From Escherichia coli 042 (GTDB taxonomy: Bacteria; Pseudomonadota; Gammaproteobacteria; Enterobacterales; Enterobacteriaceae): a stretch of DNA of 64,000 nucleotides. The stretch lies in the NCBI RefSeq assembly GCF_000027125.1, contig NC_017626.1. One strand, 5' to 3'. The position numbers and the translations under genes are program-made. Position 1 is the first letter of the stretch; each line of letters begins with the position of its first letter. Below, one piece after another: positions 41,517 through 50,066 of this stretch. The notes under the pieces are model-generated. The model was given only the letters and a program-made list of their open reading frames with translations, searched no databases and was not told the DNA's origin.

Positions 41517-41633
41517 AATTACTTTTCCTTCTAGTTGTCAAAAACATGGAATACAATTAAAAAAGGAAAAGGTCAAACCATAGGCAGAAGGTTGAATACT
41601 TTTTATTCCAGATTAAATAACGCAGCGCGAGAT

Positions 41634-41693
41634 GATTGTTCAAAACAATCACATTGCTGGAACAGGGTTCATCCCTGTTAATGATAGGATTCA
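41634..41693. repeat. Copy A of a repeated element of about 58 bp with two internal inverted repeats
   Basis: gattgttcaaaacaatcacattgctggaacagggttcatccctgttaatgataggatt; nearly identical copy at 56962-57018. Confidence 0.7.
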
Positions 41694-42124: not shown

Positions 42125-42236
42125 GCTCCTTTAGGAGATATAAAAATAAAGCAATGCCCACCTATACACTGCTACGCAGTGTGTGGGGTCTACCGACGGT
42201 TGCCTGCCGCAGGCTAACACCGTTTCCTTCGGAAAC
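42125..42236. promoter_or_regulatory. Candidate origin of transfer (oriT): cluster of inverted repeats
   Basis: IRs ctcct-tt-aggag, acactgc-tac-gcagtgt, gcctgc-c-gcaggc and gtttcc-ttc-ggaaac in a GC-richer patch between the divergent TraD-like and relaxase genes. Confidence 0.45.
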
Positions 42237-42351
42237 AAGGTCAACGTCAACACCAGAGTTTTTCTTACGAAAAACTAAAACCAGCTGAGTCGTATTGGAG
42301 ATTTATATTTTGGTTTGATATTTAAATTTATTTTGAGGTTGTTTTTATTAT

Positions 42352-43860
42352 ATGGCTATTTTTCATCTGGATTTTAAAATTGTGAAACGTTCTGAAGGCA
42401 GATCTTCCGTTGCGAAAGCTGCCTATCATGCTCGTACACGTATAACAGATGAAAGAACAGGTGATACCTATGATTATAGTCGCCGTACCGATTTATACGG
42501 ACATTTCATATTAGCACCAATTAATGCTCCAGAACATATCGTGAAAGACTCTACAGCATTGTGGAATGAAGTTGAAAGAGTTGAGCGCCAGAGCAATGGT
42601 CAAACATCCCGTTATTTCGATGTTGCCATACCTGCCGAGTTAAACAATGACGACAAGAAAAGACTTGTCCTTGAGTATTGTCAGAAAAATTTCGTTGATA
42701 AAGGCATGATTGCCGATATCGCTTTCCACGATCTTGATAGCGATAATCCTCATGCTCACGTTATGTTGACATTAAAAACCATAGGCCCTGAAGGTTTTGG
42801 TAAAAAAGAAAGAAGCTGGAACGACAGAAAAATGTCTGTTATATGGCGTGAATCATGGGCATCTATGGCTAACAGCTACCTTGCTGCCGCTGGCTCGTCA
42901 GAACGTATTGACCATCGTTCTCTTCAGGCCCAGCATGAAGAGGCATTAGAAAAAGCGGCGGTAGCTTTAGATAATGAAGAAAAAGCGCTATGGCTTGCTA
43001 AAGCCGCTGAAACAAACCGTCCTCCAATGAAGCGTATCCATAGTGCCAAATGGCGTAGTAAAGCAGCACAAGAGCAAAGAGCAGCAGAACAGGCTGTTCG
43101 TGATGCTGCCAAGCAGGAAGCGGTTGAAGTCTACAAGACTTTCAGCGAACTTGATCTTGAAATCGTCGTTGATGTCAGAAGCTTCACCGTGGCTGCTCTT
43201 GCTGAACCAGAAGAGATTGTATTACCAGAAACGCGCTCCGGCTCTTCTTCTCATGAAGCACAAAGTCCTGTATTGGTAGCGCCTATTCCTCATACTCATG
43301 TGCGTGGAGTTAAATCTTACCGCGATAAAGAAAAAGTGAGTAAAGTTGTCATTAATAATATATCAGAACCAAATGTTGCTGATGCTGACATAAACACTCT
43401 TTGGAAAACATCTCCATCTAAAACCAAAAATATGGCATCCAAAAGTACCGCTGAAAGTGTTAAAAGGAAACAGGCTAATCCGCGTCAGGATAATATCTTT
43501 AAACGCTTTACAACGCTTTTGATCGGTTTCTTCAAAGAGAAATTTATATGGGCTAAGAAGAAACCTGATCCTACCGAGATTGAACATGACAGGCATGTAG
43601 CAGAAAATTACGTCTTTGATGAAGTGCTGGGTGTCTATGTATCACGCGCTGACCATGAACAACGAGCCAGATTCAACGGTGATGATAAAGAGTTCTCTGG
43701 TTACAAGCCAACACCTGATGAGATTAAGCGTTTTCCAAGCCGTCTAGCTAATACAGCACAAACTGATAGAGAGCTCGACTACATGCCTTCGCTCGTGGCT
43801 GATAAGAAATCGTTAGCACCTAAATTGAAACCAAATGCTCCCTATAAAAATAGATTATAA
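42352..43860 (+). CDS. MobA/MobL-family (MobQ-type) relaxase
   Basis: N-terminal relaxase signatures: AKAAYHARTRITDERTGDTYDYS (catalytic Tyr region), LWNEVERVERQSNGQTSRYFDVAIPAEL and the histidine triad HDLDSDNPHAHVM; SD gaggt. Confidence 0.85.
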   Translation: MAIFHLDFKIVKRSEGRSSVAKAAYHARTRITDERTGDTYDYSRRTDLYGHFILAPINAPEHIVKDSTALWNEVERVERQSNGQTSRYFDVAIPAELNNDDKKRLVLEYCQKNFVDKGMIADIAFHDLDSDNPHAHVMLTLKTIGPEGFGKKERSWNDRKMSVIWRESWASMANSYLAAAGSSERIDHRSLQAQHEEALEKAAVALDNEEKALWLAKAAETNRPPMKRIHSAKWRSKAAQEQRAAEQAVRDAAKQEAVEVYKTFSELDLEIVVDVRSFTVAALAEPEEIVLPETRSGSSSHEAQSPVLVAPIPHTHVRGVKSYRDKEKVSKVVINNISEPNVADADINTLWKTSPSKTKNMASKSTAESVKRKQANPRQDNIFKRFTTLLIGFFKEKFIWAKKKPDPTEIEHDRHVAENYVFDEVLGVYVSRADHEQRARFNGDDKEFSGYKPTPDEIKRFPSRLANTAQTDRELDYMPSLVADKKSLAPKLKPNAPYKNRL

Positions 43861-45379: not shown

Positions 45380-46030
45380 TTACCAGCTATCATTATTTCG
45401 CTTTTCAATTGCATCACGATAACGCTGTTGTTCCACAACATCCAGATTTGGATCAAATAACACACTTGATCCTTTCACAGCAATATCGGCATCAATCTCT
45501 GATTGGGGAGCATAGGCCTTATAACCATTAGGCTGTGAAGTGGCTGTGCGGATATATGTCCCATAGTGTTTCCCATTCATAGAACAACCGATGTAAGCCA
45601 ACAGGCAGGCAAACAGGAAAAAGAATGTCCATACTGTATTATAGCCGTTAATCGTATATCCACTTCCATTCACATCTGAAAACACGCCATTAAACCTGAC
45701 CGCATAGACAATCAGGAACGATGAAAGGATAACGGTTCTGCTTTTACCAACAGTTAAATGTTTACGCACAAATTTCACTGTTGGTAGTAGAGTGACCATA
45801 AAAAGAGCGATAGCAACACATACCAGCCATATAGGAAACAGTCCATATTTTTGTGTAATGTTCTGCGATACCGTCACCAAGGACAGCACCAAGAAGGCGT
45901 TGAGCAGAAAAAGTCTGACCGCCATCCATACCTTCACGTTCTTTTGCGTCTTACGGAGAAACAGCATCGGAGTCAGTGATGGTATGTTCATCAGCAGACC
46001 GATGATAAGCACCCAATAGATAGAGTTCAT
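45380..46030 (-). CDS. Hypothetical integral membrane protein (216 aa)
   Basis: Several hydrophobic segments; SD aggaag; last gene of a three-gene minus-strand operon. Confidence 0.6.
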   Translation of the reverse strand: MNSIYWVLIIGLLMNIPSLTPMLFLRKTQKNVKVWMAVRLFLLNAFLVLSLVTVSQNITQKYGLFPIWLVCVAIALFMVTLLPTVKFVRKHLTVGKSRTVILSSFLIVYAVRFNGVFSDVNGSGYTINGYNTVWTFFFLFACLLAYIGCSMNGKHYGTYIRTATSQPNGYKAYAPQSEIDADIAVKGSSVLFDPNLDVVEQQRYRDAIEKRNNDSW

Positions 46031-46046
46031 AGCGTTCTTCCTGTAA

Positions 46047-46601
46047 TTACCGGGCTTGCCAACCGTTATTGATTTTCACCAGAACAATTTTGGCTTCTTC
46101 TGGTTCAGACATCCCTTTCACGCCAGAGAAGGCATTTTTATCAACCCAGCCCGGCACGCCATCCAGTTTCCACGTATAGGTCACTTGCGTCATTTTAACG
46201 CCATTACCCTCACTCGGTTCAGTCCAGCTTTTAACCTCAGCTACGGCACGGTGACCAACACAGGCACCATCTTTACGATCCCAAAACTCAACCTCTTGGC
46301 CTTTGTCTGTTACTTCCAGAACATCTACGCTGCTAAAGCCGTTAGGTTGCTGCGAAACATCAAGCAGTCCCTGATTAGCCAGACCTTTCAAGATTTCATC
46401 ACTGGCACTGTATCCAGCAGAACGATAGCCATGGTTGACCTTAACCGGAAAACCTTTATTGAACGTAAAGTCATTGTCCTGAAGGGAGTAGCAGACCTTA
46501 GATTTTGATATATGCTCGTTTATCGCTTTCTCAAAGTCGCCTTTTTCACCGCAGCCTGATAACAACACGGCAAGTCCTGCAATGACTAAAAATTTACTCA
46601 T
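46047..46601 (-). CDS. Hypothetical lipoprotein (184 aa)
   Basis: Signal peptide with lipobox LLSGCG; SD aaggaa. Confidence 0.65.
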   Translation of the reverse strand: MSKFLVIAGLAVLLSGCGEKGDFEKAINEHISKSKVCYSLQDNDFTFNKGFPVKVNHGYRSAGYSASDEILKGLANQGLLDVSQQPNGFSSVDVLEVTDKGQEVEFWDRKDGACVGHRAVAEVKSWTEPSEGNGVKMTQVTYTWKLDGVPGWVDKNAFSGVKGMSEPEEAKIVLVKINNGWQAR

Positions 46602-46615
46602 GGTTCTTATTCCTT

Positions 46616-47194
46616 TTAATGATTGATAGTGCCGTTTCTCAGAACAACCAGACGAACTGGCATATCGGCATTGTTTACTGTGGCGAAGCCACGAACTTCG
46701 AAGTTGTTGACTGTTCCAGTGACACTGACTTTCTGGCCTTTCTTGTAAGTAAGAACCGCATCATCAATACCAGAGTAGTAATCCAGCCAGACCATCCCGC
46801 CGCAGTAGCTTGTATCGGCTGTTTTAAAGAGCAGATAATAATTAGGGGCTGATTTGGGCATTCCCGTCATCATATCGCTGGCACTTCTGCCCTTCGTAAC
46901 CTCAAGAACAGTGGCATTGGTGATAGCGATCCTTTTGCCAGTCCATTTTTTTTCTGCTGCCATCGCATTTTCTTCATAGTCTTTGCAGACAGCACCAAGG
47001 CCAGTAATGGACGTCGCTGGACCACTATCCTGACCGGAAGCTGAAACCCGCAGCGCTTTATCAACGGTGCTGTTCAATGATGCCAGTGAAGAGTTAATTG
47101 CCCCATTAACGCTATTCACGCCTTCGTTGAGTTGCTGGCAGCCAGAAAGAAACACCAGAGAGATCGCCAGTGGTAAGAAGTTATGTCCTTTCAT
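46616..47194 (-). CDS. Hypothetical lipoprotein (192 aa)
   Basis: Signal peptide with lipobox FLSGCQ; SD gaggaa. Confidence 0.65.
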   Translation of the reverse strand: MKGHNFLPLAISLVFLSGCQQLNEGVNSVNGAINSSLASLNSTVDKALRVSASGQDSGPATSITGLGAVCKDYEENAMAAEKKWTGKRIAITNATVLEVTKGRSASDMMTGMPKSAPNYYLLFKTADTSYCGGMVWLDYYSGIDDAVLTYKKGQKVSVTGTVNNFEVRGFATVNNADMPVRLVVLRNGTINH

Positions 47195-47319
47195 TTATTC
47201 CTCAAGGATTTAGTCAGATTCGTATACCCCAATCCCGGCGCACTGACCTATAGATCAGGAGTTATCGTCTAATCAATTGATAGAATTGAATTATTTTTAG
47301 TGTTCGTCACATCGTTTAA

Positions 47320-47452
47320 ATCGATCGATATAAAACAAATGATAGACTCAGGCTATCATAGATAATATATCGATCGATAATATCAATTAAAAAACCGATC
47401 GATAAATCACTTTCAATCGTTAATGCCTATCAATATAAATTTATCGATCGAT
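47320..47452. repeat. Four copies of palindromic (A)TCGATCGAT(A), each with a GATC site, plus an IR TGATAG-N7-CTATCA
   Basis: Copies at 47320-47330, 47369-47379, 47395-47404 and 47442-47452 in the divergent intergenic region. Confidence 0.75.
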
Positions 47453-47529
47453 TTTACAGATCATTTTGCTTGAGTATGTTGGCACTGGCGGCTATGCTGG
47501 GCTGAGATAAAGCAGTAAAACAGAGAGGG

Positions 47530-47985
47530 ATGAGCATGGAAAACAACAACGAGCGAAGCTCTATGGAAATCTTCGAAAAAGATCAAAAAATCGCTTTTGT
47601 TGACTCGTTCAGCGATGCTGCTTTGTCTTACGAATACGAACAGGCGGGCTTCACCATTAATTTAATGCAACGCTCGGTTCTTCTCTTTAACCATAATATA
47701 AAGAAAAACGTAACTGCCAAGCAGTTGCGTAAAAATAATATAAAGAATAACGTAATGTCTTCGACATTGCGTAAAAATATGAACAGCACATTTATATATT
47801 CATATAACAACATCAGGGAAATCAACTACTCGCTGCCTGATTGCAGATCCGATGATGCCGAGAACTGTATTATGATTGATGATGTATTAAATCCAGTCTG
47901 GACGTTCAGGGTTCCATCTCACGCACATTATATTTGCGAGCAATGGGTGGAAGTATTTAATAACCATATTTTCTTTGACCCATAA
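47530..47985 (+). CDS. Hypothetical protein (151 aa)
   Basis: ORF with SD gaggga; AT-rich. Confidence 0.55.
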   Translation: MSMENNNERSSMEIFEKDQKIAFVDSFSDAALSYEYEQAGFTINLMQRSVLLFNHNIKKNVTAKQLRKNNIKNNVMSSTLRKNMNSTFIYSYNNIREINYSLPDCRSDDAENCIMIDDVLNPVWTFRVPSHAHYICEQWVEVFNNHIFFDP

Positions 47986-48110
47986 ACAAAGTATTAAGCA
48001 AAAGGAAAATAAATATCTGACTAATGATATTAATTAATAGAATTATTTGCTTTTTAGCAAATTAATGTTTAATTATATACACATAGAATAATTGATATCG
48101 AGGTATATTT

Positions 48111-48581
48111 ATGTCTGGGAAAAATCCTTTTTGGAATTATGATTATAATGCGGCGCAACGTAATAGAGAAATTGTAGACTCTTACCAACAGGCAAATGAG
48201 GCAAGGCTGGATTCTCAACAGGCGCAGTTTGAAGCGTCTATGGCTAATGACAGGGTTAGCAGAATACAGATGCAGTTGAATAACACAATCAATAGCCATA
48301 AGAAGGTTGTGGCTGATTATGAGCAACGTCTTGAAGAATATAAACAAAATTTCTTTCGTGTAGCTTTACATAAAAACATTCTCTTCAGAACGGTTCGCAG
48401 ACTTCAGGAGGAATGGCCGGATAAAAATGAATTCATCCTTGATGAAATGCAAAGACAAAGAATTTTGTGTAATCAGCAGGACTATAGAGAAAGATGGTGG
48501 AATGCCATAAAAGATAATAATCTTGCTGACGATTATCTTGAGTTTCCATTTCCTAATAGAGAGATAAAAAACAAACCATAA
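48111..48581 (+). CDS. Hypothetical protein (156 aa), predicted coiled-coil
   Basis: ORF with SD gaggta; Gln/Arg-rich heptad-like sequence. Confidence 0.55.
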   Translation: MSGKNPFWNYDYNAAQRNREIVDSYQQANEARLDSQQAQFEASMANDRVSRIQMQLNNTINSHKKVVADYEQRLEEYKQNFFRVALHKNILFRTVRRLQEEWPDKNEFILDEMQRQRILCNQQDYRERWWNAIKDNNLADDYLEFPFPNREIKNKP

Positions 48582-48695
48582 TAAGTAATTAACTATTCGT
48601 TCATAACATTATATTTATTTTAATAAGACACTAACCTGCTGTGTCTCCTAAAAACACGCCTATACATCAACCATCCATTTTATGGAATACTCATC

Positions 48696-48974
48696 ATGAC
48701 AACTACTTTGCATCCAAATTACGTTGTTGTATCAAAGCTAATATCTAAGTTTGACATTACACATGATAGTAGAGATGAGAATATTAATATCTTGATTTCT
48801 GTCATTTATGACTTGGATAACGGCAATACAATCGAATACTACATTAATAATCAGGAAGAGGCCGAGAAAAAATGCATTGAGAAAAACAGATTTTCAAGGA
48901 AATTTAAAAACCGCATTGATAATATATCACCTGAAGAAATCCGCTCGGCTAAAGATAATCACAAACCCAAATAA
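48696..48974 (+). CDS. Hypothetical protein (92 aa)
   Basis: ORF only; weak SD. Confidence 0.4.
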   Translation: MTTTLHPNYVVVSKLISKFDITHDSRDENINILISVIYDLDNGNTIEYYINNQEEAEKKCIEKNRFSRKFKNRIDNISPEEIRSAKDNHKPK

Positions 48975-49097
48975 TAAATTTGAACTCAGGATGGAACTAA
49001 TGTCTATACCGTATAATGTATTGATTTTGTGCACAGGAACGATTAAAACTATGATGTTATTGCTTGTATTCTTTACCACAAACATTAGGGAAATCGC

Positions 49098-49505
49098 ATG
49101 TCTGATGCTTTAAAGATCATCAACAATATTCGTACTCTCCGTGCTCAGGCTCGTGAACTGACACTCGAAACCTTGGAAGAGATGTTAGAAAAACTCACTA
49201 TCGTTGTAGAAGAACGTCGTGAAGAAGAGGCCTCATTTCTAAAACAGCAGGAAGAGAAACAGGCCAAGCTGGAAGCATTCCGTCAGAAGTTGTTGGAAGA
49301 TGGCATAGACCCGGCAGAGTTGCTTTCAACTGTTAGCCCATCTTCTTCCAAGACAGGAGCGAAACGCGCCCCACGTCCAGCTAAGTATAAATATGTTGAT
49401 ACCGATGGTTCGGAAAAGACGTGGACAGGTCAGGGCCGAACTCCTCGTGCTATCGCTGCTGCGCTCGAAGCCGGTAAGACACTGGAAGATTTCGAGATCA
49501 AGTAA
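49098..49505 (+). CDS. H-NS family nucleoid-associated protein (island-encoded paralogue)
   Basis: 135 aa; [33 protein letters not shown]... and C-terminal DNA-binding motif TWTGQGRTP, very close to recalled H-NS/StpA. Confidence 0.9.
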
Positions 49506-49517
49506 TCTTCATACCAT

Positions 49518-50066
49518 ATGTCTACCAAATCCGCTCATTTTTCTTGGGCGGGTTTGTTGAACCAACCTACAGGGATTAACATGCCAATAAAAGAGTTCTT
49601 AATTATGAAATCAAAAGCCTTTATTAACTTCATGCGCACTGAACTAAAAAACACATTTACAACTTCTCCTTGCGAAAATAAATTAAGAAAGGCTATTTTT
49701 ATTTTTTCTTTATTAAATGCCTTAAATATCATAGGTTATTACATCCTCACATATAGTATGCAAATCCTGTTCCTGTTGCCTATTATTTGGGGAGGGTTAT
49801 TAGCACACGGGACTTACAAACGCTATGGAGATTTGCTTAGATCTGGTTCTGATTGTGCTCTTTTTCTGGTGGCTACTATTACATCAGCATATCTCGTCAT
49901 TAACACAGCAAGTGATGATGTCGATTTTTTTGAAAAGCATATGATAAATGGATTAGGTTTTTTGATTACATATGTTTTTGCTGTAGCTGCATCCGTTCGT
50001 TTTTATATCAGTGCAATAGATTTATATAATAGCTTTATTTCTTTTAAAAAATCAAAAGAAAAATGA
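49518..50066 (+). CDS. Hypothetical membrane protein (about 160-182 aa)
   Basis: Hydrophobic segments; start codon uncertain. Confidence 0.45.
   Translation: MSTKSAHFSWAGLLNQPTGINMPIKEFLIMKSKAFINFMRTELKNTFTTSPCENKLRKAIFIFSLLNALNIIGYYILTYSMQILFLLPIIWGGLLAHGTYKRYGDLLRSGSDCALFLVATITSAYLVINTASDDVDFFEKHMINGLGFLITYVFAVAASVRFYISAIDLYNSFISFKKSKEK

What the first reader, a model, noticed from the sequence alone, without database searches (positions are those of the whole stretch)
47320..47452. Four GATC-containing palindromes in a divergent promoter region
(A)TCGATCGAT(A) recurs four times in about 130 bp, plus an IR TGATAG-N7-CTATCA, between the lipoprotein operon (start 47194) and the 47530 gene. 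Clustered GATC sites in regulatory regions can mediate Dam-methylation-dependent, phase-variable control (as at pap or agn43), and H-NS family proteins are encoded nearby. The palindromes could equally be operators of an unidentified regulator.
Basis: partly seen in the sequence, partly recalled or inferred. Interest (0 to 1): 0.55.

Follow-up and report, generated by a model that had tools for sequence, protein, structure and literature searches.

The report
Predicted double OxyR–Dam phase switch
The four GATC palindromes belong to a conserved control region of about 195 bp, built like the known OxyR-plus-Dam-methylation on/off switches (agn43, gtr, opvAB) and in part alignable to two of them; it lies between two divergent operons of a widespread mobile genomic island, so these island genes are probably switched on in only part of the cell population.

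Summary
CGATCGAT occurs four times in 47320-47452 and once elsewhere in 64 kb. A fifth GATC lies at 47459.

The 10-bp palindrome is not the conserved unit. The palindromes are the GATC-bearing arms of an array of six matches to the OxyR half-site consensus ATAGnTnnnAnCTAT. The matches start at 47280, 47311, 47342, 47373, 47416 and 47447, spaced 31/31/31/43/31 bp.

The module (47270-47465) lies in an EARL/ROD21-like island inserted at ssrA. It is present in 640 of 5426 complete E. coli genomes and in 20 other Enterobacterales species, while its flanks diverge.

Conservation follows the OxyR consensus position by position and only in that register. The bases that complete each GATC outside the half-sites are almost invariant.

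The right half aligns to the P22 gtr switch (score 67; shuffled 19±3) and to agn43 (50; 18±3). Published opvAB half-site spacing is 32/41/32.

Best reading: a doubled, back-to-back OxyR/Dam epigenetic switch. It would control a leftward lipoprotein operon and a rightward operon that here includes an H-NS paralog. OxyR binding, methylation patterns, promoters and bistability are inferred, not shown. I found no prior description.

The parts
47270..47465 (.). Conserved non-coding module (about 195 bp, 28% G+C)
   Evidence: It aligns across 29 distinct sequences from E. coli and 20 other Enterobacterales species. Mean majority-base frequency is 0.83 in the module against 0.54 and 0.46 in the flanks.
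47280..47294 (.). S1, OxyR-like half-site ATAGAATTGAATTAT (8/10)
   Evidence: It overlaps the predicted leftward -10/start region. Its invariance is partly forced by the search pattern.
47311..47325 (.). S2, half-site ATCGTTTAAATCGAT (8/10); GATC1 at its 3' end
   Evidence: It differs by one base from the agn43 half-site ATCGTTTATATCGAT.
47342..47356 (.).
   Evidence: T6 is kept in 24 of 29 and A10 in 25 of 29, although neither was part of the search pattern.
47373..47387 (.). S4, half-site ATCGATAATATCAAT (8/10); GATC2 at its 5' end
   Evidence: T6 and A10 are conserved while n7-9 and n11 vary.
47385..47399 (.). Y, weak half-site AATTAAAAAACCGAT (5/10); GATC3 at its 3' end; overlaps S4
   Evidence: It aligns with the 3' part of gtr OxyR(A) and gtr GATC2.
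47416..47430 (.). S5, half-site ATCGTTAATGCCTAT (8/10 here; 8-10 in homologs)
   Evidence: It aligns with gtr OxyR(B).
47447..47461 (.). S6, half-site ATCGATTTTACAGAT (7/10); GATC4 at its 5' end and GATC5 at its 3' end, 13 bp apart
   Evidence: It aligns with gtr OxyR(C), whose GATC3 and GATC4 are also 13 bp apart, and with agn43 GATC-II/III.
47323..47326 (.). GATC1
   Evidence: Kept in 28 of 29 homologs.
47372..47375 (.). GATC2
   Evidence: Kept in 28 of 29.
47397..47400 (.). GATC3
   Evidence: Kept in 29 of 29.
47446..47449 (.). GATC4
   Evidence: Kept in 28 of 29.
47459..47462 (.).
   Evidence: Kept in 25 of 29. It is lost in four sequences that also have a poor rightward promoter prediction.
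47470..47498 (+). Predicted rightward promoter: -35 TTGAGT 47470-75, 17-bp spacer, -10 TATGCT 47493-98
   Evidence: PWM scan. The best -10 falls +32 to +34 from GATC5 in 18 of 29 sequences. This is a prediction only. One search gave an overlapping alternative, TTTACA-N16-TATGTT.
47293..47320 (-). Predicted leftward promoter: -35 TTTAAA 47320-15 (inside S2), -10 AAAAAT 47298-93 (at the edge of S1)
   Evidence: PWM scan. The same position is the best hit in 19 of 29 sequences, with modest scores. This is a prediction only.
45380..47194 (-). Leftward operon: lipoprotein (192 aa, 46616-47194), lipoprotein (184 aa, 46047-46601), membrane protein (216 aa, 45380-46030)
   Evidence: ORFs with lipobox LSGC. 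In 27 of the 29 oriented homologous loci a homolog of one of the two lipoproteins lies directly left of the module; the other two loci hold too little left flank to tell. No informative family hits.
47536..50066 (+). Rightward gene string: 149-aa, 156-aa and 92-aa proteins, H-NS paralog (49098-49505), 182-aa membrane protein
   Evidence: H-NS, E 1e-53. This side varies between islands.

Best explanation
The region is a Dam-methylation/OxyR epigenetic switch of the agn43-gtr-opvAB kind. It is present as two back-to-back units in the divergent promoter region of an EARL (ROD21-like) genomic island.

Proposed working (inferred). Host OxyR, as a tetramer in its reduced binding mode, occupies pairs of neighbouring half-sites in the array S1-S6, which all lie roughly on one face of the helix. 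Several half-sites carry a GATC in their ATCG/CGAT arms. Methylation of these by host Dam would block OxyR, and bound OxyR would block Dam. Alternative occupancy patterns would therefore be copied to daughter cells as alternative methylation patterns.

OxyR on S1+S2 would cover the predicted leftward promoter of the lipoprotein operon. S5+S6 abuts the predicted rightward -35, which is the opvAB OBS-C/D position. The outcome would be heritable, reversible ON and OFF subpopulations for the envelope lipoprotein operon and, in this island lineage, for an operon that includes an H-NS paralog.

Shown here: the motif array, its spacing, its position-specific conservation, the GATC conservation and the sequence similarity to proven switches. 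Inferred: OxyR binding, methylation sensitivity, promoter positions, which state is ON, and bistability.
For: 1. Six matches to ATAGnTnnnAnCTAT start at 47280, 47311, 47342, 47373, 47416 (each 8/10) and 47447 (7/10), spaced 31/31/31/43/31. Five of the window's 44 sites scoring at least 8/10 lie within 140 bp. Shuffles of the module give a mean of 0.37 such sites, and none of 5000 reaches 5.
2. Published opvAB half-sites are centred at -148, -116, -75 and -43, a spacing of 32/41/32, with four GATCs 'in a symmetrical pattern'. gtr and agn43 half-sites are 32 bp apart.
3. In 29 distinct homologs, forming 20 clusters at 90% identity, the four half-sites not constrained by my search pattern carry 1.85 bits at consensus-specified positions against 0.99 at n positions (p about 1e-8). 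The contrast is +0.86 bits in the true register and at most +0.27 at any offset from -8 to +8. S3 is 10/10 in 21 of 29.
4. The half-site spacing is kept to within 1 bp in all 29.
5. GATC1-5 are kept in 28, 28, 29, 28 and 25 of 29. The G or C that completes each GATC outside the 15-mer is kept in 25 to 29 of 29.
6. Local alignment of the module to the P22 gtr control region scores 67 against a shuffled null of 19.2±2.8 (maximum 33). It runs over 78 bp and matches GATC3/S5/GATC4/GATC5 to gtr GATC2/OxyR(B)/GATC3/GATC4. Alignment to agn43 scores 50 against 18.4±2.6. The reverse-complemented left half against gtr scores 40 against 18.4±2.8.
7. OxyR binding, its blockage by methylation and the resulting phase variation are experimentally established for gtr, opvAB and agn43.
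8. No LysR-type regulator is annotated or detected in the island, which fits a host factor.
9. The target operon encodes envelope proteins, as in the known cases.
Against: No methylation, binding or expression data exist for this locus, so everything rests on sequence.

Half-site spacing is 31 bp, not the 32 bp of gtr, agn43 and opvAB.

The consensus is loose: 44 sites score at least 8/10 in 64 kb.

GATC3 lies in a poor half-site (Y, 5/10).

The invariance of S1 and of the ATAG/CTAT arms of S3 is partly forced by the pattern used to fetch the homologs.

The homologs are related sequences, not independent samples.

Promoters are predictions with modest scores, and two rightward candidates overlap.

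The right-hand gene is not conserved, and four sequences lack GATC5.

The region is 28% G+C, so H-NS-type proteins probably bind it too.
Confidence: 0.7

Rival explanations
1. This is an ordinary OxyR-regulated divergent promoter. OxyR sites give a graded response, for example to peroxide, without heritable switching, and the GATCs are by-products of the ATCG/CGAT arms.
For: The half-site array is the strongest signal. ATCG also occurs in half-site arms that do not form a GATC, namely the 5' arms of S2 and S5.
Against: The bases outside the 15-mers that complete each GATC are kept in 25 to 29 of 29 homologs. The arms stay ATCG/CGAT and do not drift towards the better-binding ATAG/CTAT. The right half aligns to gtr and agn43, where exactly these GATCs drive switching.
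Confidence: 0.12
2. This is an operator array for a different regulator, either another LysR-type protein or an island-encoded protein such as the product of the variable right-hand gene. Any resemblance to OxyR sites is coincidental or convergent.
For: ATAG-N7-CTAT fits the general LysR T-N11-A box. The neighbouring small proteins have no assigned function.
Against: No LysR-type gene is annotated or detected in the island. The right-hand gene is not conserved while the module is. The module stays about 75% identical while island proteins fall to 48-60% identity, which suits a conserved host factor. S3 matches the OxyR consensus 10/10 in most homologs, including T6 and A10.
Confidence: 0.08
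3. The region is a nucleation site for H-NS or the island's H-NS paralog. The palindromes would be high-affinity H-NS motifs (TCGATAAATT; consensus of Lang et al. 2007, recalled from memory) that silence both operons.
For: The reverse complement of site 4 is TCGATAAATT exactly and site 3 matches 9/10 in the window. The region is 28% G+C. H-NS and truncated H-NS genes lie in the island.
Against: A 10/10 motif is present in only 9 of 29 homologs. H-NS binding does not explain the 31-bp register, the invariant ATAG/CTAT arms, or the conserved T6 and A10. H-NS probably binds here as an additional layer, not as the reason for the architecture.
Confidence: 0.05
4. The region is a cis-acting DNA-processing site: a transfer origin, a replication origin with SeqA sequestration, or a pap-type Lrp/PapI switch.
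For: It is an AT-rich, repeat-rich, strongly conserved non-coding block 3.5 kb from a MobQ relaxase gene, with a RepL-like gene in the island. Strain 98208 carries the module in a different, smaller gene context, next to an integrase and an AlpA-family gene and with no lipoprotein homolog beside it.
Against: A separate conserved element lies directly upstream of mobQ (42146-42310). It has an inverted repeat with compensatory stem changes followed by an invariant stretch, which is the expected oriT place. The N7 spacers are hypervariable while the arms are invariant, so these are protein half-sites, not hairpins. GATC spacings of 49/25/49/13 are out of helical phase for SeqA. There is no 102-103-bp GATC pair as in pap.
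Confidence: 0.03

Closest known systems
gtr (O-antigen glucosylation) switch of phage P22 and Salmonella (Broadbent et al. 2010, PMC2909390)
   Same: OxyR half-sites in a row, with the central one a perfect match and the outer ones carrying GATCs in ATCG/CGAT arms. There is a GATC pair 13 bp apart in the promoter-proximal half-site. The module's right half aligns directly over 78 bp.
   Different: gtr has 3 half-sites 32 bp apart, 4 GATCs and one promoter. Here there are 6 half-sites at 31/43 bp, 5 GATCs, a degenerate A-type half-site (Y), and a second, inverted unit facing a divergent promoter.
opvAB switch of Salmonella enterica (Cota et al. 2012 and 2016, PMC3350482 and PMC4856963)
   Same: Four half-sites spaced 32/41/32, against 31/43/31 for S3-S6. 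Strong sites (A, C) alternate with weaker GATC-bearing sites (B, D). Four GATCs are arranged symmetrically. The last half-site abuts the -35. With the predicted start, S3-S6 sit near -156/-125/-82/-51, against -148/-116/-75/-43.
   Different: I could not obtain the opvAB sequence, so only the published architecture was compared. This module has two more half-sites (S1, S2) that serve a divergent promoter, plus a fifth GATC.
agn43 (flu) switch of E. coli
   Same: The agn43 stretch TTTATCGATCgTTTATATCGATC matches module sites 4-5 almost base for base. ACGATCAATATC matches site 3 in many homologs. The half-site ATCGTTTATATCGAT differs from S2 by one base.
   Different: agn43 has one OxyR site (two half-sites, three GATCs) downstream of the start and acts only as a repressor site. 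It controls a single gene.
Phage Mu mom promoter (OxyR binds only when three upstream GATCs are unmethylated; from general knowledge)
   Same: The same pair of host factors acts on a mobile element.
   Different: mom is not known as a heritable bistable switch. No sequence comparison was made here.
pap-family Lrp/Dam switches
   Same: Clustered regulatory GATCs upstream of envelope genes.
   Different: The defining pair of GATC boxes 102-103 bp apart is absent, and the motifs are OxyR-type, not Lrp-type.

Membership tests
Dam/OxyR epigenetic phase-variation switch (agn43, gtr, opvAB) | Two or more matches to the OxyR half-site consensus ATAGnTnnnAnCTAT | tested here: met
   Six sites score 8, 8, 8, 8, 8 and 7 of 10 in the window. 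In homologs S3 averages 9.7 and S5 8.8.
Dam/OxyR epigenetic phase-variation switch (agn43, gtr, opvAB) | Half-site spacing that suits the reduced OxyR tetramer (32 bp centre to centre in gtr, agn43 and opvAB) | tested here: inconclusive
   Spacing is 31 bp (32 bp at one step in 5 of 29 homologs), with 42-44 bp between the two units against 41 in opvAB. Whether OxyR tolerates one base less is unknown.
Dam/OxyR epigenetic phase-variation switch (agn43, gtr, opvAB) | GATC sites inside or at the edge of half-sites, kept by selection | tested here: met
   GATC1, 2, 4 and 5 overlap S2, S4 and S6. Retention is 25 to 29 of 29, including bases outside the OxyR 15-mer. GATC3 lies only in the weak site Y.
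Dam/OxyR epigenetic phase-variation switch (agn43, gtr, opvAB) | Sequence relatedness to a proven switch | tested here: met
   Against gtr the score is 67 with a null of 19.2±2.8. Against agn43 it is 50 with a null of 18.4±2.6.
Dam/OxyR epigenetic phase-variation switch (agn43, gtr, opvAB) | A half-site pair that overlaps or abuts the promoter, with an alternative pair further away | tested here: inconclusive
   Only predicted promoters are available. S1/S2 lie over the leftward promoter, and S6 ends 8 bp before the rightward -35. No start site has been mapped.
Dam/OxyR epigenetic phase-variation switch (agn43, gtr, opvAB) | OxyR binds, and Dam methylation prevents binding | not testable with these tools
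   Needs gel shift or footprinting with methylated and unmethylated DNA.
Dam/OxyR epigenetic phase-variation switch (agn43, gtr, opvAB) | Opposite methylation patterns in ON and OFF lineages, and reversible bimodal expression dependent on dam and oxyR | not testable with these tools
   Needs methylation-sensitive sequencing and single-cell reporters. The papers searched held no such data.
pap-type Lrp/Dam switch | Two GATC boxes 102-103 bp apart within Lrp sites | tested here: not met
   GATC start-to-start distances are 49, 25, 49 and 13. Pairwise sums are 74, 123, 62, 87 and 136, never 102-103 (the criterion is).
H-NS high-affinity nucleation site | Conserved TCGATAAATT-like motif | tested here: not met
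   A 10/10 match is present in only 9 of 29 homologs.
EARL (ROD21-like) genomic islands (context of the module) | P4-type integrase beside a tRNA or tmRNA gene, MobA/MobL relaxase with TraD, and full-length plus truncated H-NS genes | tested here: met
   tmRNA at 35384-35746 and integrase at 35871. MobQ, TraD, H-NS and truncated H-NS in the near-identical island. The serU island of CFT073, named in the EARL paper, carries the same module.

The most novel reading that the evidence does not exclude
A bidirectional epigenetic switch with more than two states is built into the backbone of a whole family of mobile islands (EARL/ROD21-like; serU island of uropathogenic E. coli). One array of six OxyR half-sites and five GATCs would couple two divergent promoters. 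Heritable subpopulations would then differ both in envelope lipoproteins (possibly exclusion or phage-resistance functions) and in an island-encoded H-NS paralog. That would gate silencing, excision or transfer of the island in a fraction of cells. Because conjugative entry produces hemimethylated or unmethylated DNA, the switch could also be reset on arrival in a new host.
Probability: 0.2. Interest if true: 0.75.

Novelty: new variant of a known kind. Interest (0 to 1): 0.6.

Why it matters
The papers read here name agn43, gtr and opvAB as the OxyR/Dam phase-variation switches; the Mu mom promoter is a further OxyR/Dam-regulated site I know of. These are model systems for bacterial epigenetic inheritance and bet-hedging. 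This locus would add a new one that is common: it occurs in about 12% of complete E. coli genomes, including CFT073, Nissle 1917, NC101, ATCC 25922 and O127:H6, and in at least 20 other Enterobacterales species. It sits in the conserved backbone of a mobile island, not in front of a cargo gene. It has a doubled, divergent layout. It suggests that part of the behaviour of ROD21-like islands, such as variable gene expression and H-NS paralog dosage, may be bistable. It also gives a directly testable prediction with standard tools.

Tried and rejected
RNA element: Rfam gave only two sub-threshold plant miRNA hits. The N7 spacers vary while the arms are invariant, with no compensatory changes.

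oriT: rejected, because a separate conserved inverted-repeat element lies directly upstream of mobQ.

IHF: the left block CTATCAATTGRTTAA (reverse complement of about 47270-47284) fits WATCAANNNNTTR, a consensus I recalled from memory. It is equally well explained as S1 plus flank, and I did not pursue it.

Fur, FNR, CRP and DnaA boxes: checked by eye, no fit.

Phage collection: no homolog of the module by blastn. The similarity to gtr is visible only by direct local alignment.

Function of the regulated proteins: NCBIfam, Pfam, PHROGs and PADLOC gave nothing firm. The 192-aa lipoprotein has a weak tRNA_anti-like OB-fold hit (E 0.007) and a weak 'Sie-like' PHROG hit (E 0.002). The AlphaFold model of that lipoprotein was too poor for a fold search (pLDDT 48).

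opvAB sequence: not obtainable from the papers or their supplements, so only the published coordinates were compared.

Literature: searches for a prior description of this switch in ROD21-like or serU islands or in integrative conjugative elements found none. This is absence within the searched library only.

Full report
**Observation.** CGATCGAT gives 8 strand matches in the 64-kb window and 7 of them are here. Dinucleotide shuffles give a mean of 2.05 and never 8 in 100. TGATAG-N7-CTATCA is exact only at 47340-58. GATC starts at 47323, 47372, 47397 and 47446, spaced 49/25/49, and again at 47459. GATC is not enriched in the window overall. The region lies between a leftward lipoprotein gene (ATG 47194) and a rightward gene that RefSeq starts at 47536 in a near-identical island.

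**Context.** The window is E. coli chromosome. An island is inserted next to the tmRNA gene (35384-35746). It carries an integrase, a TraD pseudogene, a MobQ relaxase (42352-43860), two lipoproteins and a membrane protein, an H-NS paralog (49098-49505), TraW-like and DotA/TraY proteins and a RepL-like protein. The near-identical island of strain 4/1-1 also has a truncated H-NS gene. [quoted passage not shown]

**The region is a conserved non-coding module.**
- A 451-bp query found the region in 640 of 5426 complete E. coli genomes.
- In 563 of them only query positions 121-318 (window 47270-47467) match, at about 75% identity, under no annotated feature. These include CFT073, Nissle 1917, NC101, ATCC 25922, O111:H8 and O127:H6.
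- In CFT073 the match lies in the tcpC/serU island, again between a leftward lipoprotein gene and a rightward gene.
- A pattern containing no GATC (TTGATAGNATTNAATT-N42-54-TGATAGN7CTATC) found 20 further loci. They come from Pectobacterium, Yersinia, Hafnia, Erwinia, Enterobacter, Cedecea, Kluyvera and others.
- The alignment of 29 distinct sequences forms 20 clusters at 90% identity, with a median pairwise identity of 0.75. The module has a mean majority-base frequency of 0.83, against 0.54 and 0.46 in the flanks.
- In 27 of the 29 oriented homologous loci a homolog of one of the two lipoproteins lies directly left of the module; the other two hold too little left flank to tell. The right-hand neighbour varies. 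Strain 98208, aligned separately, has different short genes on the left.

**What is conserved is not the palindrome.** ATCGATCGAT is present at the four places in 9, 17, 2 and 4 of 29 sequences. GATC is kept in 28, 28, 29 and 28 of 29, and the fifth GATC in 25 of 29. The arms TGATAG/CTATCA are invariant while the 7-bp spacer varies freely. This is the signature of a protein half-site pair, not a hairpin.

**Identification.**
- The agn43 control region of K-12 reads ACGATCAATATCtattTTATCGATCgTTTATATCGATCgataag. This is nearly the sequence of module sites 3, 4 and 5 in many homologs.
- That led me to scan with the OxyR half-site consensus ATAGnTnnnAnCTAT, as used in the gtr and opvAB papers.
- The window has 44 sites scoring at least 8/10. 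Five start at 47280, 47311, 47342, 47373 and 47416, and a 7/10 site starts at 47447. I call these S1 to S6.
- Their spacing is 31/31/31/43/31. In 5000 shuffles of the module none gave five such sites (mean 0.37).
- The spacing is kept to within 1 bp in all 29 homologs.
T6 is kept in 24 of 29 and A10 in 25 of 29, although those positions were not in my search pattern.
- In the four half-sites not constrained by the pattern (S2, S4, S5, S6), consensus-specified positions carry 1.85 bits and n positions 0.99 (p about 1e-8). The result is the same with one representative per cluster.
- Sliding the register by any offset from -8 to +8 collapses the contrast from +0.86 to at most +0.27 bits.
- The G or C that completes each GATC outside the 15-mer is kept in 25 to 29 of 29. 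This argues that GATC itself is selected.

**Comparison with proven switches.**
- The P22 gtr control region has half-sites of 8, 10 and 8 of 10, spaced 32 bp. GATC pairs 13 bp apart sit in the outer sites.
- The module aligns to it over 78 bp with score 67, against 19.2±2.8 (maximum 33) for shuffles. The alignment matches GATC3, S5, GATC4 and GATC5 to gtr GATC2, OxyR(B), GATC3 and GATC4.
- Alignment to agn43 scores 50 against 18.4±2.6.
- The left half, reverse-complemented, also aligns to gtr, scoring 40 against 18.4±2.8. The module therefore looks like two gtr-like units back to back, with their distal half-sites (S4 and Y) overlapping.
- opvAB, as published, has four half-sites at -148, -116, -75 and -43. 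The first and third are perfect. The second and fourth are weaker and overlap GATCs. The four GATCs lie in a symmetrical pattern.
- S3 to S6 repeat that plan. With the predicted rightward promoter they fall near -156, -125, -82 and -51.
- For gtr, opvAB and agn43, the papers show that OxyR binds, that methylation blocks it, and that this produces phase variation.

**Promoters (predictions only).**
- A PWM scan places the best rightward promoter at -35 TTGAGT 47470-75 and -10 TATGCT 47493-98. The -10 falls +32 to +34 from GATC5 in 18 of 29 sequences.
- The best leftward promoter is at -35 TTTAAA 47320-15 (inside S2, next to GATC1) and -10 AAAAAT 47298-93 (at the edge of S1). The same position is the best hit in 19 of 29.
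- The four sequences that lack GATC5 also have poor rightward promoter scores. For the two of them whose locus extends far enough, no right-hand gene homolog lies within 1.7 kb.

**Rivals.**
- Island-encoded regulator: no LysR-type regulator is annotated or detected in the island.
- H-NS nucleation: the motif TCGATAAATT (recalled from Lang et al. 2007) is exact in the window but in only 9 of 29 homologs. At 28% G+C, H-NS proteins probably bind as an extra layer.
- Transfer origin: a better candidate lies directly upstream of mobQ (42146-42310). It is an inverted repeat with compensatory changes followed by an invariant stretch.
- pap-type switch: the 102-bp spacing is absent.
- Known RNA family: none matches.

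**Limits.** Nothing here shows binding, methylation state, transcription starts or bistability. The 31-bp spacing is one base short of the known cases. GATC3 lies in a poor half-site. The regulated proteins have no assigned function. I could not retrieve the opvAB sequence. I found no earlier description of this switch, including in the paper that defined the EARL islands. That holds only for the library searched.

**Verdict.** The locus is best described as a new, doubled and divergent variant of the OxyR/Dam epigenetic switch. It is widespread in the backbone of ROD21-like islands. Confidence is about 0.7.

Noticed in passing
window 41633-41651, 56961-56979, 57102-57120: A different palindrome, TGATTGTT-N3-AACAATCA, occurs three times: once in the traD-mobQ gap and twice about 600-730 bp upstream of the RepL-like gene at 57693. 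It looks like the operator of another island regulator.
   Followed up: no
window 42146-42310: A strongly conserved non-coding element lies directly upstream of mobQ. It has an inverted repeat (ACACTGC-TAC-GCAGTGT here, ACACTCAC-TTC-GTGAGCGT in other islands, so the stem changes are compensatory) followed by the invariant GTGGGGTCTACCGACGGTTGCCTGCCGCAGGCTAA. It is probably the island's oriT.
   Followed up: partly
window 38836-39882 (- strand): A 348-aa protein matches adenine-specific DNA methyltransferases (YhdJ/CcrM-like, E 8e-25). It is absent from the otherwise near-identical island of strain 4/1-1. Its target site and any link to the GATC switch are unknown.
   Followed up: no
L008 (E. 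coli strain 98208, NZ_CP173533.1 about 2339431-2339611): The module occurs here in a different, smaller gene context: short hypothetical genes, an IS1 remnant, and an AlpA-family gene and integrase within 2.7 kb, with no lipoprotein homolog beside it and no relaxase within the 5 kb fetched. It may be a remnant or a small mobilisable island.
   Followed up: no
window 46616-47194 (- strand): The 192-aa lipoprotein directly controlled by the module has only weak hits: Pfam tRNA_anti-like OB fold (E 0.007) and a PHROG 'superinfection exclusion Sie-like' family (E 0.002). Its family is widespread in Enterobacterales and unnamed everywhere.
   Followed up: partly
L003 (E. coli O111:H8, NZ_CP077565.1): In this IS-disrupted copy of the island (IS1203 on both sides, relaxase truncated), GATC2 has mutated to GATT. 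This is the only loss of that site among 29 sequences and fits relaxed selection in a decaying island.
   Followed up: no
window 62281-63873 (- strand): A 530-aa ORF with an autotransporter beta-barrel domain (BafA/AIDA-like) lies near the right end of the window. No OxyR/GATC array was seen in the part of its upstream region that the window contains.
   Followed up: no
E. coli genomes: Some genomes, for example strains E7476, PA45B and 0H26, carry two copies of the module and so presumably two ROD21-like islands. If the switch is real, both copies would draw on the same OxyR pool.
   Followed up: no
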